64,000 bases of DNA from Escherichia coli (GTDB lineage Bacteria > Pseudomonadota > Gammaproteobacteria > Enterobacterales > Enterobacteriaceae). Shown piece by piece: positions 51,853 through 55,424 of the stretch; the stretch's first letter is position 1; the number at the start of each line of letters is the position of its first letter. The position numbers and the translations under genes were made by a program. Under the pieces are notes generated by a model. It had not been told where the DNA came from and searched no databases. It saw nothing but the letters and a program-made list of their open reading frames with translations. The stretch is taken from NCBI RefSeq assembly GCF_044647545.1, contig NZ_CP172818.1. One strand, given 5' to 3'.

Positions 51853-53103
51853 ATGGAAAGTAAAGTAGTTGTTCCGGCACAAGGCAAGAAGATCACCCTG
51901 CAAAACGGCAAACTCAACGTTCCTGAAAATCCGATTATCCCTTACATTGAAGGTGATGGAATCGGTGTAGATGTAACCCCAGCCATGCTGAAAGTGGTCG
52001 ACGCTGCAGTCGAGAAAGCCTATAAAGGCGAGCGTAAAATCTCCTGGATGGAAATTTACACCGGTGAAAAATCCACACAGGTTTATGGTCAGGATGTCTG
52101 GCTACCTGCTGAAACCCTTGATCTGATTCGTGAATATCGCGTTGCCATCAAAGGCCCGCTGACCACTCCGGTTGGTGGTGGTATTCGCTCTCTCAACGTT
52201 GCTCTGCGCCAGGAACTGGATCTCTACATCTGCCTGCGTCCGGTACGTTACTATCAGGGCACTCCAAGCCCGGTTAAACACCCTGAACTGACCGATATGG
52301 TTATCTTCCGTGAAAACTCGGAAGACATTTATGCGGGTATCGAATGGAAAGCAGACTCTGCCGACGCTGAGAAAGTGATTAAATTCCTGCGTGAAGAGAT
52401 GGGCGTGAAGAAAATTCGCTTCCCGGAACATTGCGGCATCGGTATTAAGCCGTGTTCTGAAGAAGGCACCAAACGTCTGGTTCGTGCAGCGATCGAATAC
52501 GCAATTGCTAACGATCGTGACTCTGTGACCCTGGTGCACAAAGGCAACATCATGAAGTTCACCGAAGGCGCGTTTAAAGACTGGGGCTACCAGCTGGCGC
52601 GTGAAGAGTTTGGCGGTGAACTGATCGACGGCGGCCCGTGGCTGAAAGTTAAAAACCCGAACACCGGCAAAGAGATCGTCATTAAAGACGTGATTGCTGA
52701 TGCATTCCTGCAACAGATCCTGCTGCGTCCGGCTGAATATGATGTTATCGCCTGTATGAACCTGAACGGTGACTACATTTCTGACGCCCTGGCAGCGCAG
52801 GTTGGCGGTATCGGTATCGCCCCTGGCGCAAACATCGGTGACGAATGCGCCCTGTTTGAAGCCACCCACGGTACTGCGCCGAAATATGCCGGTCAGGACA
52901 AAGTAAACCCAGGCTCTATTATTCTCTCCGCTGAGATGATGTTACGCCATATGGGCTGGACTGAAGCCGCAGACTTGATTGTTAAAGGTATGGAAGGCGC
53001 AATCAACGCCAAGACTGTAACCTATGACTTCGAACGTCTGATGGAAGGCGCTAAACTGCTGAAATGTTCAGAGTTTGGTGACGCGATCATCAAGAATATG
53101 TAA
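51853..53103 (+). CDS. icd: isocitrate dehydrogenase (NADP); 3' end carries the e14 attachment junction
   Basis: ORF track 416 aa, [38 protein letters not shown]. Confidence 0.97.
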
Positions 53104-53126
53104 TTACTACATGTGTTAAATATTGT

Positions 53127-53157
53127 AACGGGCGTATAACACGCCCGTTGTTTTTTG
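53127..53157 (+). terminator. rho-independent terminator after icd
   Basis: aacgggcg-tataaca-cgcccgtt followed by ttgtttttt. Confidence 0.8.
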
Positions 53158-53172
53158 TTAGGCTGCTAACGG

Positions 53173-53205
53173 TTATCAAAATTTTATCAAAAAAAGTTAT
53201 CAAAA
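53173..53205 (+). repeat. three direct repeats of TTATCAAAA (candidate integrase arm-type or accessory-factor sites near attL)
   Basis: ttatcaaaa at 53173-53181, 53184-53192 and 53197-53205 in the icd-ymfD intergenic region. Confidence 0.4.
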
Positions 53206-53520
53206 CCCCTCGGTAGTTTTGGGGTAGGCTGGCCGGTCAGGTGGTAGTTCTACTACTAGTCTCCCACATAGATATTCCTTAGCTTTTTATTATTGCTGGC
53301 GGACGCTCGTTAATATTTAAGGTCTTCATTGATTAAGACATCCCCAAAGTTAGTTATGTATTCACTGTTATTAGGACAATTATGAATTACCACTCCTTAC
53401 ACCCGCTCAAATATTGTTAAATTGCCGGTTTTGTATCAACTACTCACCCGGGACTCGCCAGGGGACAGCCAACAGGCATTGGGTGCAATCACCTTAGCGT
53501 TCAGGTACATGCGGAATGTA

Positions 53521-53543
53521 AAAAAGGCCGCGAGCGCGGCCCC
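53521..53543 (-). terminator. rho-independent terminator after ymfD
   Basis: plus strand aaaaaggccgcgagcgcggcccc; on minus strand a GC hairpin followed by UUUUU. Confidence 0.7.
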
Positions 53544-53596
53544 TTCACATACATCTTTAGTACTGAGACTGTTTAACCTAGGGAATTATTATCGTA

Positions 53597-54262
53597 TTAT
53601 ATTGCATTACAACTCCCAACAGTGACATATGAACTTCCTGCTTTACTCCACGACTTTAATATTTCAAGGCCATGTGAAGAACATATTTCTTGCACTGCGA
53701 GTTCATCGAGTAATCCATAGTAAGAAACACTTTTTGAATTTTTGTAAATGTATCCGTAAAGATGTTTTCTTCCTGTTTCGTATTTTTTGAAGTATGAGCT
53801 TTTATATTGATTTACAATAAGAGTCTCACCTCCTGATTTTAGTAATCTCTTGATGCTAAGAACTATTTTGTCGATTGTATCCCGACAAGGAACGGCAGAG
53901 AGAACATTAGAGCAAAGGATGAAATCGTAACCCCCAATTATTTTGTCGACATCCTCGAAAGCAACTGTATTTGCATTTTTATAATATCGTGGGACATAGT
54001 CAATAATTTTAGTTTTAATTCCTCTAATAATTTGCTCTCTTTCAAGTTGCCTTTTCGAGTCTAGAAAAGTAACTTCATCAAATTTACTGATTAATTCATC
54101 AGAATATCTAAGTTTTCCGCAGCCAAAATCAAGGGCGTGGCCATTTTTCTCAATGCTTCTAATATACTCGCAAAGATATCTAGAGGGCATCGTATGAGGT
54201 TTTGCTGCATTCTCTGAGCGAATATTAACTCCGTGCATATTATAGTTCAAAGCAAGTACCAT
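53597..54262 (-). CDS. ymfD: e14 putative class I SAM-dependent methyltransferase
   Basis: ORF track 221 aa; motif I ALDFGCGKL, acidic beta-2 end VTFLD, DFILCSNVL; AT-rich; start abuts ymfE stop with 0-nt gap. Confidence 0.85.
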   Translation of the reverse strand: MVLALNYNMHGVNIRSENAAKPHTMPSRYLCEYIRSIEKNGHALDFGCGKLRYSDELISKFDEVTFLDSKRQLEREQIIRGIKTKIIDYVPRYYKNANTVAFEDVDKIIGGYDFILCSNVLSAVPCRDTIDKIVLSIKRLLKSGGETLIVNQYKSSYFKKYETGRKHLYGYIYKNSKSVSYYGLLDELAVQEICSSHGLEILKSWSKAGSSYVTVGSCNAI

Positions 54263-54976
54263 TCAATTAATGTTATTTTTAGTGAAAAATTCTTTTATTT
54301 TATCGTCCGGGATTTTTCCGACTTGACTTTCAGTTCTGGGCTTAACTGTCAAAGCAAAGATAATACCACTCACTGAGAATGATAAAATTACAAAAAAGAA
54401 TAAAGACAGCAAAGAACCTTCAACATGAAAAATATCCATTTGTTTGCAAAAAAAGATTATTAGGAAGGAAATTAATGCAATTATCGAAAATTCAAAAAAT
54501 ATCCAAAAATAGTATACTTTATTCCAGAAGAGTTCAATATAATGTTTGTCTTCAATTTTTCTTACTTCAGGGTAATATAGATTGCTCATTACATTGTGAG
54601 CTTCATCTTTATTTAATTTTCTGTTGACTCCAGCTCTCCGTGATAACGGTTTTATAATTAGATGCTTATCCCAAAGATATCGCACCCGAAGTAGTTTGGC
54701 TGCATTGTTATGTAGGTCTAACGCACCGCTAATTAAATATGCAAAAATCGCAAAAGCACAAGGTAATATACCAAAAGATAGTGCCCAATTAATAAAGCTC
54801 TCATGATCTTTAATAGGTGGGACATACTTGGTTGGTAATGTTATTAAAGGGATGTATTCGTAAATAACTAGAAGTATGCAATATATTAGCGTATTTAAGA
54901 AAGTTGCTTTATGAAGTTTAGGCAACATTTCATTATAATTTTTGGGGGGTTCGAACATATTATTCACCTGAGTCAC
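54263..54976 (-). CDS. ymfE: e14 multi-pass inner membrane protein (start ambiguous: ATG 54976 or GTG 54967)
   Basis: ORF track 237 aa; several hydrophobic helices; AT-rich. Confidence 0.8.
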   Translation of the reverse strand: MTQVNNMFEPPKNYNEMLPKLHKATFLNTLIYCILLVIYEYIPLITLPTKYVPPIKDHESFINWALSFGILPCAFAIFAYLISGALDLHNNAAKLLRVRYLWDKHLIIKPLSRRAGVNRKLNKDEAHNVMSNLYYPEVRKIEDKHYIELFWNKVYYFWIFFEFSIIALISFLIIFFCKQMDIFHVEGSLLSLFFFVILSFSVSGIIFALTVKPRTESQVGKIPDDKIKEFFTKNNIN

Positions 54977-55167
54977 GCTTTAGGATAGTGTAATGGTAAT
55001 ATTTAATTAAGTGTCATTATATACTTTTCAGTAGGTTAGTTACAATTTTTTGTATCTGTTCAGGCTGACCTAGCTTCGCTGACAGACAATATTGTGATCA
55101 GTAGCACGTATCGAGGAGGAGTAGCGCTACAAATTTGACGCTGGGTGAGAATCTGAAATTGATAGAA

Positions 55168-55235
55168 ATGAAATAATGAAATAATGAAATGATGAAATGA
55201 TGAAATGATGAAATGATGAAATGATGAAATGATGA
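55168..55235. repeat. octanucleotide tandem repeat (ATGAAATR) x8.5 in ymfE/lit divergent intergenic region
   Basis: atgaaat recurs with exact 8-nt period at 55168, 55176, 55184, 55192, 55200, 55208, 55216 and 55224, then a partial atga; spacer base a (x2) then g (x6). Confidence 0.9.
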
Positions 55236-55424
55236 CAGAGTGTCCAGTGGGCACGGATGGTGTCTTACGACATGCTTACCTTAATCGTTCCCAGTGTGCC
55301 TATAGCAGATATTCTAAACATGTCGATAATTCATTACGCATATAGTATCGAACATAGAAAAAACTGAAGATTCATCTTATTTTGTATATACTACCTAGCC
55401 CAACAATGTAGAGGTTAACGAAAA

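What the first reader, a model, noticed from the sequence alone, without database searches (positions are those of the whole stretch)
55168..55235. Octanucleotide tandem repeat (ATGAAATR x8.5) in the ymfE/lit divergent control region
Eight and a half perfectly phased copies of an 8-bp unit lie about 190 bp upstream of both the ymfE and lit start codons. The unit is not a multiple of three and lies outside the credible genes. Short tandem repeats in promoter regions can act as slipped-strand contingency switches or as arrays of regulator binding sites. The two spacer variants (a x2, then g x6) look like recent unit-by-unit expansion.
Basis: seen in the sequence. Interest (0 to 1): 0.55.

Follow-up and report, generated by a model that had tools for sequence, protein, structure and literature searches.

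The report
Variable octamer repeat upstream of lit
An 8-base motif repeated 8.5 times between two genes of the E. coli K-12 e14 prophage is real and varies in copy number between strains, but it looks like a by-product of replication slippage in junction DNA rather than a genetic switch.

Summary
Window 55168-55235 holds 2x ATGAAATA, 6x ATGAAATG and ATGA. This is the strongest tandem repeat in the window and is far beyond chance. It lies in the 457-bp spacer between the divergent e14 prophage genes ymfE and lit.

It is a true VNTR. Across public assemblies I found alleles AGG, AAGG, AAGGGGGG, AAAGGGGGG and AAGGGAGG (3.5 to 9.5 copies), all with identical flanks.

The contingency-switch reading is not supported:
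- All 281 K-12-derived complete genomes, including long-separated sublineages and evolved lines, carry the same 8.5-copy allele.
- Published cap-based TSS maps place the ymfED start at 55008 (and 54986) and the lit start at 55401. Each follows its own -10 hexamer, and the starts lie 160-233 bp from the array.
- The array is absent upstream of the closest lit relatives and of ymfDE relatives. Homology to lit relatives stops before it.
- The octamer is not enriched elsewhere, forms no structure, and encodes no conserved peptide.

The best reading is a lineage-specific slippage product in junction DNA between two accessory modules. It is probably neutral, or at most a modest spacing modifier. It is an ordinary VNTR and of low interest.

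The parts
55168..55235 (.). Octanucleotide tandem array, 8.5 copies (the finding). It is a VNTR.
   Evidence: alleles
55168..55183 (.). Two A-type units (ATGAAATA). Copy number is 1, 2 or 3 in other alleles.
55184..55231 (.). Six G-type units (ATGAAATG). There are 2 in the wild lineage. One allele has a G-to-A change in unit 6.
55232..55235 (.). Terminal half unit ATGA, present in every allele.
55153..55167 (.). Degenerate proto-repeat CTGAAATT GATAGAA flanking the array on the left. It is a likely seed for slippage.
   Evidence: copy at 55160-55191 is 78% identical to the reference
55016..55045 (-). ymfED sigma-70 promoter: TTGTAA (55045-55040), 18-nt spacer, TATAAT (55021-55016).
   Evidence: the same hexamers are given by Shimada 2014, PMC3946193
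55008..55008 (-). Mapped ymfED transcription start (U00096.3 1198278, reverse). The array lies at -160 to -227 relative to it.
   Evidence: PMC6131387, Suppl. Data 2; coordinates checked
54986..54986 (-). Second reported ymfE 5' end (NC_000913.2 1197479, minus strand).
   Evidence: PMC3415461 supplement
55387..55392 (+). Probable lit -10 hexamer TATACT. The -35 is weak (CTGAAG, 55364-55369).
   Evidence: read from the sequence; position fits the TSS; inference
55401..55401 (+). Mapped lit transcription start (U00096.3 1198671, forward), 24 nt before the ATG. The array lies at -233 to -166 relative to it.
55159..55185 (+). TTGATA (55159-55164), 15-nt spacer, AATAAT (55180-55185). This is the lit promoter guessed from a genomic SELEX peak. 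Its -10 lies in the second A-unit. No mapped TSS supports it.
   Evidence: guess; no start there
55425..56318 (+). lit, the cell-death peptidase (Peptidase_U49) and T4 exclusion gene.
54263..54967 (-). ymfE, an uncharacterised membrane protein, co-transcribed with ymfD (53597-54262).
55229..55345 (+). 38-codon ORF opened by the last ATGATGA of the array. Judged not to be a gene.
   Evidence: no family or collection entry; no TSS upstream
55060..55254 (-). 64-codon ORF that reads through the array on the minus strand. Judged not to be a gene.
   Evidence: allele length differences of 8 and 40 bp shift its frame

Best explanation
The array is a lineage-specific variable-number tandem repeat. It arose by replication slippage (slipped-strand mispairing) from a short proto-repeat (CTGAAATT..ATGAAATA). 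It sits in the non-conserved junction DNA between two independently acquired accessory modules of the e14 prophage: ymfDE on one side, and lit with its own proximal promoter on the other. It gains or loses whole 8-bp units rarely. That is often enough to differ between natural lineages (3.5 to 9.5 copies), but too rarely to vary among laboratory K-12 sublineages. It is not part of either core promoter, of any transcript detected so far, or of any coding sequence. Its only mechanical effect is to change the length of the spacer between the divergent ymfED and lit promoters: 393 bp between starts in K-12 and 353 bp in the wild lineage. I infer that this effect is neutral or nearly so. Shown here: the repeat, its alleles, its stability in K-12, its distance from the mapped starts, and its absence from relatives. 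Inferred: slippage as the origin, and neutrality.
For: Alleles differ only by whole units and have identical flanks: AGG (complete genome 1297KP, a Hadza gut metagenome, three NCBI assemblies and Logan assemblies), AAGG, AAGGGGGG, AAAGGGGGG and AAGGGAGG. Single-step variants occur within both haplotype backgrounds (AGG to AAGG; AAGGGGGG to AAAGGGGGG), as slippage predicts.

281 of 282 complete genomes that carry the spacer are at least 99% identical over 201 bp spanning the array, so none has an 8-bp indel. They include separate K-12 sublineages and evolved lines.

SMRT-Cappable-seq gives one TSS for ymfED (55008, minus) and one for lit (55401, plus). Kim 2012 gives 54986 (minus). None lies in or next to the array.

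Upstream homology with the nearest lit relatives (73-74% aa) covers only about 130-160 bp before the ATG, and neither relative has an array. The ymfDE homologs on a Citrobacter plasmid have no repeat upstream, and DNA homology there stops at the ymfE start codon.

Outside the array the octamer occurs 5 times in 64 kb, against about 6 expected in total. Neither strand forms structure (z = 0.44 and -0.40). The same octamer has expanded independently in many unrelated genomes, so such arrays arise readily.
Against: Neutrality is inferred, not measured. No expression data compare the alleles. The array lies in a spacer that binds RNA polymerase sigma-70 holoenzyme in vitro (genomic SELEX), and the peak is too broad to exclude the array. 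The TSS datasets I could read are not the most sensitive: the Ettwiller list was truncated in storage, and Thomason 2015 and the lit(Con) papers are not held. The perfect identity of the units shows recent expansion, which does not by itself discriminate neutral from selected change. Some 'complete' K-12 genomes may be reference-guided, which would inflate the apparent invariance.
Confidence: 0.72

Rival explanations
1. Upstream modulator. Copy number tunes lit and/or ymfED transcription from a distance. It could do so by changing the spacing and rotational phase (8 bp is about 0.76 helical turn per unit) between the two divergent promoters or between a bound factor and a promoter. This would resemble the TAAA tract upstream of Neisseria nadA. 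Alternatively, the array could itself be a multi-site platform for an unidentified DNA-binding protein.
For: The array sits between two divergent mapped promoters. Natural alleles differ by 8 to 48 bp. The spacer is an in vitro RNAP-binding region. Lit dosage matters biologically: from my own knowledge of Kao, Gumbs & Snyder 1987 and its citation in PMC5811629, lit(Con) up-promoter mutations are needed for strong T4 exclusion.
Against: The array is not conserved upstream of lit or ymfDE relatives. The octamer is not enriched elsewhere. No DNA-binding gene is adjacent. The 8-bp period places successive units on different faces of the helix. No TF-target table in the searchable literature lists this spacer apart from RNAP. 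The array is 160-233 bp from either start, beyond usual activator or UP-element range.
Confidence: 0.15
2. Cryptic or alternative lit promoter. TTGATA (55159-55164) plus the AATAAT created by the second A-unit (55180-55185) form a sigma-70 promoter. Its existence would depend on the number of A-units, giving spacers of 7, 15 or 23 bp for 1, 2 or 3 units. It would yield a long lit leader containing AUG-AAA-UGA mini-ORFs.
For: Shimada 2014 proposed exactly these hexamers for lit from a SELEX peak. The hexamer match is 10 of 12, better than the mapped lit promoter. The one-A-unit wild allele lacks it.
Against: A 15-bp spacer is strongly suboptimal (established promoter knowledge), and no allele gives 16-18 bp. 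The consensus scan did not report it. Full-length cap-selected reads give a single lit start at 55401 and none near 55192. Kim 2012 shows none either. The SELEX peak is explained by the two mapped promoters.
Confidence: 0.06
3. Classical high-frequency contingency (phase-variation) locus switching lit or ymfED ON and OFF.
For: It is a perfect short-unit repeat next to a phage-defence gene, and copy number differs between lineages.
Against: 281 of 281 K-12-derived genomes are invariant, including evolved populations. The array is outside any ORF, core promoter or 5' UTR. There are only 6 identical units, far fewer than the 15 or more typical of fast-switching tracts (established knowledge). E. 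coli has intact mismatch repair.
Confidence: 0.03
4. Coding or translational element. Either the minus-strand 64-codon ORF or the plus-strand 38-codon ORF is a small protein, or the AUG-AAA-UGA units act as coupled uORFs.
For: The minus strand of the array is open in all frames. The plus-strand units form overlapping stop-start UGAUG motifs. The array ends in ATGATGA, which opens a 38-codon ORF. In a few unrelated genomes the same array abuts real lipoprotein gene starts.
Against: Allele differences of 8 and 40 bp are not multiples of 3. Neither peptide is in a 15-billion-protein collection or matches PHROGs or PADLOC. There is no Shine-Dalgarno sequence and no transcript start upstream. Across 69 arrays elsewhere, 23% are followed by an ORF of at least 60 codons, against 21% for random ATGs.
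Confidence: 0.02

Closest known systems
Intergenic VNTR / MLVA-type tandem repeats of E. coli (short-unit, copy-number-polymorphic, selectively near-neutral)
   Same: It is a perfect head-to-tail short units in non-coding DNA. It has stepwise whole-unit alleles with identical flanks and internal unit variants that record its history. It is stable within a clone and differs between lineages.
   Different: It is present only in the few strains that carry this e14 left end: 282 of 5426 complete genomes, 281 of them K-12 derivatives. That makes it useless as a general typing marker. I found no paper describing it.
Haemophilus influenzae hifA/hifB TA-repeat switch (repeat in a divergent promoter region)
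   Same: A simple repeat sits between two divergently transcribed genes, and copy number changes spacing.
   Different: From established knowledge, the hif repeat lies between the -10 and -35 of the overlapping core promoters and switches at high frequency. Here the array is 160-233 bp from both starts and is invariant in 281 K-12 genomes.
Neisseria meningitidis nadA upstream TAAA tract (distal repeat modulating promoter output)
   Same: The repeat is upstream of the core promoter, so any effect would come through distance, phasing or factor binding rather than reading frame. This is the nearest mechanistic analogue for the residual novel case.
   Different: The nadA tract is close to the -35, is flanked by defined NadR and IHF sites, and has a measured effect on expression (established knowledge). 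None of these is shown here, and the array is further away.
MetJ operator arrays (tandem 8-bp metboxes AGACGTCT)
   Same: Both are tandem arrays with an 8-bp period, so an 8-bp period is not incompatible with cooperative protein binding.
   Different: The unit ATGAAATG matches the metbox at 1 of 8 positions and is not palindromic (read from the sequence). There is no link to methionine genes.
Replication-origin or plasmid iterons
   Same: Both are direct repeats in AT-rich DNA of a mobile element.
   Different: Iterons are about 17-22 bp, helically phased, and lie next to a rep gene and DnaA boxes. None of these features is present here.

Membership tests
VNTR / tandem repeat generated by slippage | Head-to-tail copies of one short unit, beyond chance | tested here: met
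   TRF period 8, 8.5 copies, score 122; 8 matches against 0.23 expected
VNTR / tandem repeat generated by slippage | Alleles differ by whole units while the flanks are conserved | tested here: met
   AGG, AAGG, AAGGGGGG, AAAGGGGGG and AAGGGAGG have identical 25-30 nt flanks
VNTR / tandem repeat generated by slippage | No requirement for the sequence: absent from orthologous or related contexts | tested here: met
   No array upstream of lit relatives or ymfDE relatives
Simple-sequence contingency (phase-variation) locus | Repeat lies inside an ORF, between -35 and -10, or otherwise within the core promoter or 5' UTR of the controlled gene | tested here: not met
   Mapped TSSs are at 55008/54986 (minus) and 55401 (plus). 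The array is at -160 to -227 and -233 to -166
Simple-sequence contingency (phase-variation) locus | High-frequency, reversible copy-number change, so that clonal relatives differ | tested here: not met
   281 of 281 K-12-derived complete genomes are identical across the array. Only about 3 variant alleles were seen among other K-12-like assemblies, and one of those is doubtful. Within-culture heterogeneity is not testable here.
Simple-sequence contingency (phase-variation) locus | Copy number determines ON/OFF or graded expression | not testable with these tools
   No expression data by allele. This needs reporter fusions or isogenic strains.
Regulator-binding site array / iterons | Unit matches a known binding motif, or the motif recurs at other targets | tested here: not met
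   The octamer is not enriched outside the array (5 occurrences, about 6 expected overall). Manual comparison found no similarity to metbox, Fur, CRP or IHF consensus (plus established consensus sequences; no motif library was available).
Regulator-binding site array / iterons | Array conserved with the regulated gene in relatives | tested here: not met
Regulator-binding site array / iterons | Direct evidence of protein binding | not testable with these tools
   Only RNAP holoenzyme SELEX covers the spacer, at low resolution. No TF-target list names it.
Sigma-70 promoter (the Shimada-predicted lit promoter overlapping the array) | -35 and -10 hexamers with a 16-18 bp spacer and a transcription start 5-9 nt downstream | tested here: not met
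   The spacer is 15 bp (7 or 23 in other alleles). The site was not returned by the scan. No TSS near 55192.
Small protein gene / uORF | Reading frame preserved among alleles; product recognisable or called elsewhere | tested here: not met
   8- and 40-bp length differences; no entries or family hits

The most novel reading that the evidence does not exclude
Copy number of the octamer array acts as a slow evolutionary rheostat for the abortive-infection protease Lit and/or the divergent ymfED module. By changing the distance and helical phase between the two divergent promoters, or the occupancy of an unidentified AT-binding protein, different e14 lineages (3.5 versus 8.5-9.5 copies) would set different basal Lit levels. 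They would therefore strike different trade-offs between T4 exclusion and self-toxicity.
Probability: 0.1. Interest if true: 0.5.

Novelty: new member of a known kind. Interest (0 to 1): 0.15.

Why it matters
If the array did tune lit, it would be a rare example in E. coli K-12 of repeat-length control of an abortive-infection toxin. It would also explain why wild-type lit is nearly silent. As the evidence stands, its value is modest. It is a clean, previously undescribed VNTR that marks e14 lineages and has a readable unit history of A- and G-type units. It also shows that a perfect repeat in a divergent 'control region' need not be regulatory: the mapped promoters, the comparative data and 281 invariant genomes all point to a bystander. 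It has a practical side too, because k=31 assemblies (Logan) systematically break at the K-12 allele.

Tried and rejected
1. Hypermutable switch. Rejected on the invariance of 281 K-12-derived genomes.
2. Core-promoter spacer repeat. Rejected on the mapped TSSs.
3. Shimada's TTGATA-15-AATAAT lit promoter. It is located exactly at the array edge, but no TSS supports it and no allele has a usable spacer.
4. Conserved regulatory feature of lit or ymfDE. Rejected, because the nearest relatives lack it.
5. Dispersed binding motif. The octamer is not enriched.
6. Structured DNA or RNA. There is no fold and no Rfam hit in the spacer.
7. Small protein. Neither ORF is in any collection or family, and frames are not preserved.
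8. Start-codon duplication or coupled uORF array as a general class. The idea was prompted by the same octamer abutting lipoprotein starts in other phyla. It failed as a general rule: 16 of 69 arrays against a 21% control.
9. IntE or Xis arm sites, or an origin. The array is 2.2 kb from the attL core (e14 starts at window 52939) and has no rep gene nearby. Rejected by position.
10. T4 late promoter mimic (TATAAATA). The units match only 5 of 8 positions, so this was rejected by inspection.

Dead ends: phage collection, no hit. Viral contigs with the flank pattern, no hit. Kao & Snyder 1987/1988, Mehta 2004 and Thomason 2015 are not held. The Ettwiller TSS file was truncated in storage. Supplements for Conway 2014 and Singh 2014 are not held, and the held Urtecho supplements had no entry for this region.

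Full report
**Observation**

Window 55168-55235 reads ATGAAATA x2, ATGAAATG x6, then ATGA. Tandem Repeats Finder reports period 8, 8.5 copies, 98% matches, no indels and score 122. The next best array in the 64-kb window scores 49. A two-unit pattern with up to two mismatches matches 8 times, all inside the array, against 0.23 expected, and no shuffle out of 100 reaches 8. The repeat is real, correctly placed and far beyond chance. A degenerate proto-unit (CTGAAATT GATAGAA, 55153-55167) abuts its left end.

**Context**

The region is the left end of the cryptic prophage e14 of E. coli K-12. The genes are:
- ymfD, 53597-54262, minus strand
- ymfE, 54263-54967, minus strand
- lit, 55425-56318, plus strand
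- intE, 56409-57536, minus strand

Window 53230-57530 is identical to NC_000913.3 1196500-1200800 (0 differences in 4301 bp). Window coordinate plus 1,143,270 therefore gives the U00096.3 coordinate, and the array is 1198438-1198505. The MG1655 record annotates nothing in the ymfE-lit spacer, and Rfam has no match there. The array ends 189 nt before the lit ATG and starts 200 nt before the ymfE ATG.

**Does copy number vary?**

In 5,426 complete E. coli genomes the spacer occurs in only 282. Over a 201-bp query spanning the array, 281 are at least 99% identical, so none has even one 8-bp indel, which would give about 96%. As far as the listings show, all of these are K-12 derivatives. They include MG1655, W3110, C600, AB1157, HB101, J53, BW25113, S17-1 and TG1. 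They also include DH5alpha, XL1-Blue and TOP10, in which IS elements have removed most of e14 but left ymfD-ymfE-lit. Mouse-gut-evolved and laboratory-evolved lines are there too.

The single non-K-12 genome is the clinical isolate 1297KP. It has 3.5 copies (one A-unit and two G-units), is 40 bp shorter, and has nearly identical flanks.

A metagenome scan and exact-protein look-ups added more lineages:
- The 1297KP-type haplotype differs from K-12 by about 40 SNPs in 4.5 kb. It carries AGG in a Hadza gut metagenome, three NCBI assemblies and four Logan assemblies, and AAGG in one Logan assembly.
- K-12-like backgrounds gave AAAGGGGGG (ENA OEPP01000063.1) and AAGGGAGG (SRR7749091, which also carries a Lit substitution).
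- A JGI mock-community SOAP assembly gave AAGGGGGGG, which I treat as doubtful.

The short alleles cannot be assembly collapses, because their periodic run (20 nt) is shorter than k=31. The long K-12 allele, in contrast, makes Logan contigs end 30 nt inside the array.

So the array is a genuine VNTR with single-unit steps in both haplotype backgrounds. It changes rarely. Some 'complete' K-12 genomes may be reference-guided, which would overstate the invariance.

**Where are the promoters?**

SMRT-Cappable-seq (Yan et al. 2018, PMC6131387, Supplementary Data 2) lists one start for b1138|b1137 at 1198278 (reverse) and one for b1139 at 1198671 (forward). These are window 55008 (minus) and 55401 (plus).
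- The first is 8 nt downstream of TATAAT in the site TTGTAA-18-TATAAT (55045-55016). The consensus scan and Shimada et al. 2014 (PMC3946193) both pick this site.
- The second is 24 nt before the lit ATG and 9 nt downstream of TATACT (55387-55392). This hexamer assignment is my reading of the sequence.
- Kim et al. 2012 (PMC3415461) report a ymfE 5' end at NC_000913.2 1197479, which is window 54986, and nothing else in the spacer.

Relative to these starts the array lies at -160 to -227 for ymfED and at -233 to -166 for lit. That is outside both core promoters and both leaders.

Shimada et al. guessed a lit promoter, TTGATA-15-AATAAT, from a genomic SELEX peak. I located it at 55159-55164 and 55180-55185, so its -10 lies in the second A-unit. 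No mapped start supports it. Its spacer is 15 bp, or 7 and 23 bp in the other alleles, and never 16-18 bp. The two mapped promoters are enough to explain the SELEX peak.

The more sensitive TSS tables could not be read, so a weak or conditional start cannot be excluded.

**Comparative evidence**

- No phage record matches the ymfD-lit region.
- A Citrobacter koseri IncHI2 plasmid carries ymfD-ymfE homologs at 68.5% nucleotide identity. Homology stops at the ymfE start codon, and there is no tandem repeat upstream.
- The nearest Lit relatives outside the e14 cluster (73-74% amino-acid identity) align with e14 only over about 130-160 bp before the ATG. That stretch includes the mapped promoter and the Shine-Dalgarno region. 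Further upstream they carry an unrelated element and no octamer array.

The array therefore sits in lineage-specific junction DNA between two separately mobile modules.

**Other tests**

- Outside the array the octamer occurs 5 times in 64 kb, with about 6 expected in total.
- Neither strand of the array forms secondary structure (z = 0.44 and -0.40).
- The plus strand of the array has TGA in all frames. The minus strand is open, giving a mechanical 64-codon ORF, and the final ATGATGA opens a 38-codon ORF.
- Allele length differences of 8 and 40 bp destroy both frames. Neither peptide is in a 15-billion-sequence collection or matches PHROGs or PADLOC.

**A side lead, tested and rejected**

The exact octamer array occurs independently in 57 loci of species-representative genomes and 9 viral contigs. 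It reaches 9 copies, and none of these loci is e14-related. In several it abuts obvious lipoprotein or signal-peptide starts. I tested whether the arrays are systematically start-codon duplications. 16 of 69 are followed in phase by an ORF of at least 60 codons, against 21% for random ATGs in the same loci. I reject this as a general rule. The result does show that this AT-rich octamer expands readily by itself.

**Interpretation**

The best-supported explanation (confidence about 0.7) is a slippage-generated, lineage-specific VNTR in non-conserved junction DNA. It is probably neutral. Its only certain effect is to change the distance between the divergent ymfED and lit starts: 393 bp in K-12 and 353 bp in the wild lineage.

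The rivals are:
- A distal spacing, phasing or factor-binding modulator, analogous to the nadA TAAA tract (about 0.15)
- A cryptic promoter dependent on A-unit number (about 0.06)
- A classical contingency locus (about 0.03)
- A coding or uORF role (about 0.02)

The contingency-switch and binding-array ideas are not supported.

**Novelty and interest**

I found no paper in the searchable library that mentions the repeat. The key older e14 and lit papers were not available. As a kind of feature it is an ordinary VNTR, so I class it as a new member of a known kind, with interest of about 0.15. The most novel reading still open is a slow copy-number rheostat on the Lit abortive-infection protease. 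I give that about 0.1 probability, and it would be moderately interesting if true.

Noticed in passing
window 52908-53143 (icd 3' end / e14 attL): The window differs from MG1655 at 33 positions here, although it is identical to MG1655 from 53230 to 57530. Its version (...ATCAAGAATATGTAATTACTACATG...) is neither the MG1655 attL icd end (93.1% identity) nor the icdC pseudogene (91.7%). The best of 5,426 complete genomes is only 98.4% identical (strain BS-04). All other fetched e14 loci carry the MG1655-type end. A few K-12 records show intermediate identities (95.6-96.4%), which suggests mosaic or gene-converted icd ends.
   Followed up: partly
L051, L053, L055, L064, L067, L073, L083, L086, L090, L096 (genome contigs); L028-L036 (viral contigs): The identical octamer array (ATGAAATG)n, with 3 to 9 copies, has arisen independently in Verrucomicrobiales, Hymenobacter, Providencia, Legionella, Bacteroidales, giant-virus MAGs and others. 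In several cases (L087, L089/L066, L096, L106) it runs straight into a lipoprotein or signal-peptide start (MKK..., MKHLL...). There each unit is an AUG-AAA-UGA mini-ORF whose stop overlaps the next AUG. The association with gene starts is not significant overall (23% against 21%), but individual cases might be translational-spacing repeats.
   Followed up: partly
window 53597-54967; L002 2482-3843: ymfD (a SAM methyltransferase, with a weak PADLOC hit to mad2, E = 8.6e-5) and ymfE (a membrane protein with no family) travel as a pair. A 68.5%-identical pair sits on a Citrobacter koseri IncHI2 plasmid among SMEK-domain, DUF4145 and recombinase genes. That looks like a defence island, so ymfDE may be an uncharacterised defence module next to lit.
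   Followed up: partly
L021, L044, L045, L047, L048 (Logan contigs): k=31 Logan contigs of K-12-type e14 end about 30 nt inside the six-unit G-run. Many contigs of about 9,117 bp start there. Short-read de Bruijn assemblies therefore under-report long alleles of this VNTR.
   Followed up: yes
L037 2225-2310; L038 98-180; L002 about 4090-4120 and 4385-4420: A shared GC-rich element (cttccgc.tctcgctcgtcgcagac...gtaccagaagcggacttcacactc) lies upstream of both lit relatives. Similar 'ttcctcgctca..cggac' motifs occur upstream of the Citrobacter ymfE homolog. It may be a small repeated or mobile intergenic element, and it occupies the position that the octamer array has in e14.
   Followed up: no
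window 55093-55108 and 55121-55130: A CRP-like half-palindrome TGTGA-N6-GCACG and a perfect 10-bp palindrome GTAGCGCTAC lie in the GC-richer centre of the spacer, between the ymfED promoter and the array. An imperfect palindrome GTGTCCAGTGGGCAC follows the array at 55241-55255 (read).
   Followed up: no
window about 54172-54594 (ymfD/ymfE junction): Panyukov & Ozoline 2013 (PMC3661553) list a 422-bp 'promoter island' at U00096.2 1196665, flagged as H-NS-bound, inside ymfD/ymfE. Shimada 2017 (PMC5493296) lists a minor-sigma SELEX peak at 1198640 inside lit. Both are close to the array but neither covers it.
   Followed up: no
L015-L019, L022, L043 (DH5alpha, XL1-Blue, TOP10 genomes): In the 'e14-minus' cloning strains the prophage is not fully gone. 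ymfD-ymfE-lit and the 8.5-copy array remain, truncated just after lit by IS3 or, in some XL1-Blue and TOP10 records, joined to a tssD/yrhA region. These strains also carry a YmfE substitution (window 54367 C to T).
   Followed up: partly
window 53117-53322 (-): A sub-threshold Rfam match to STnc150 (27.5 bits against a gathering score of 60, E = 0.006) lies between icd and ymfD. It is near but does not overlap the annotated sRNA C0293 (window 53441-53512).
   Followed up: no
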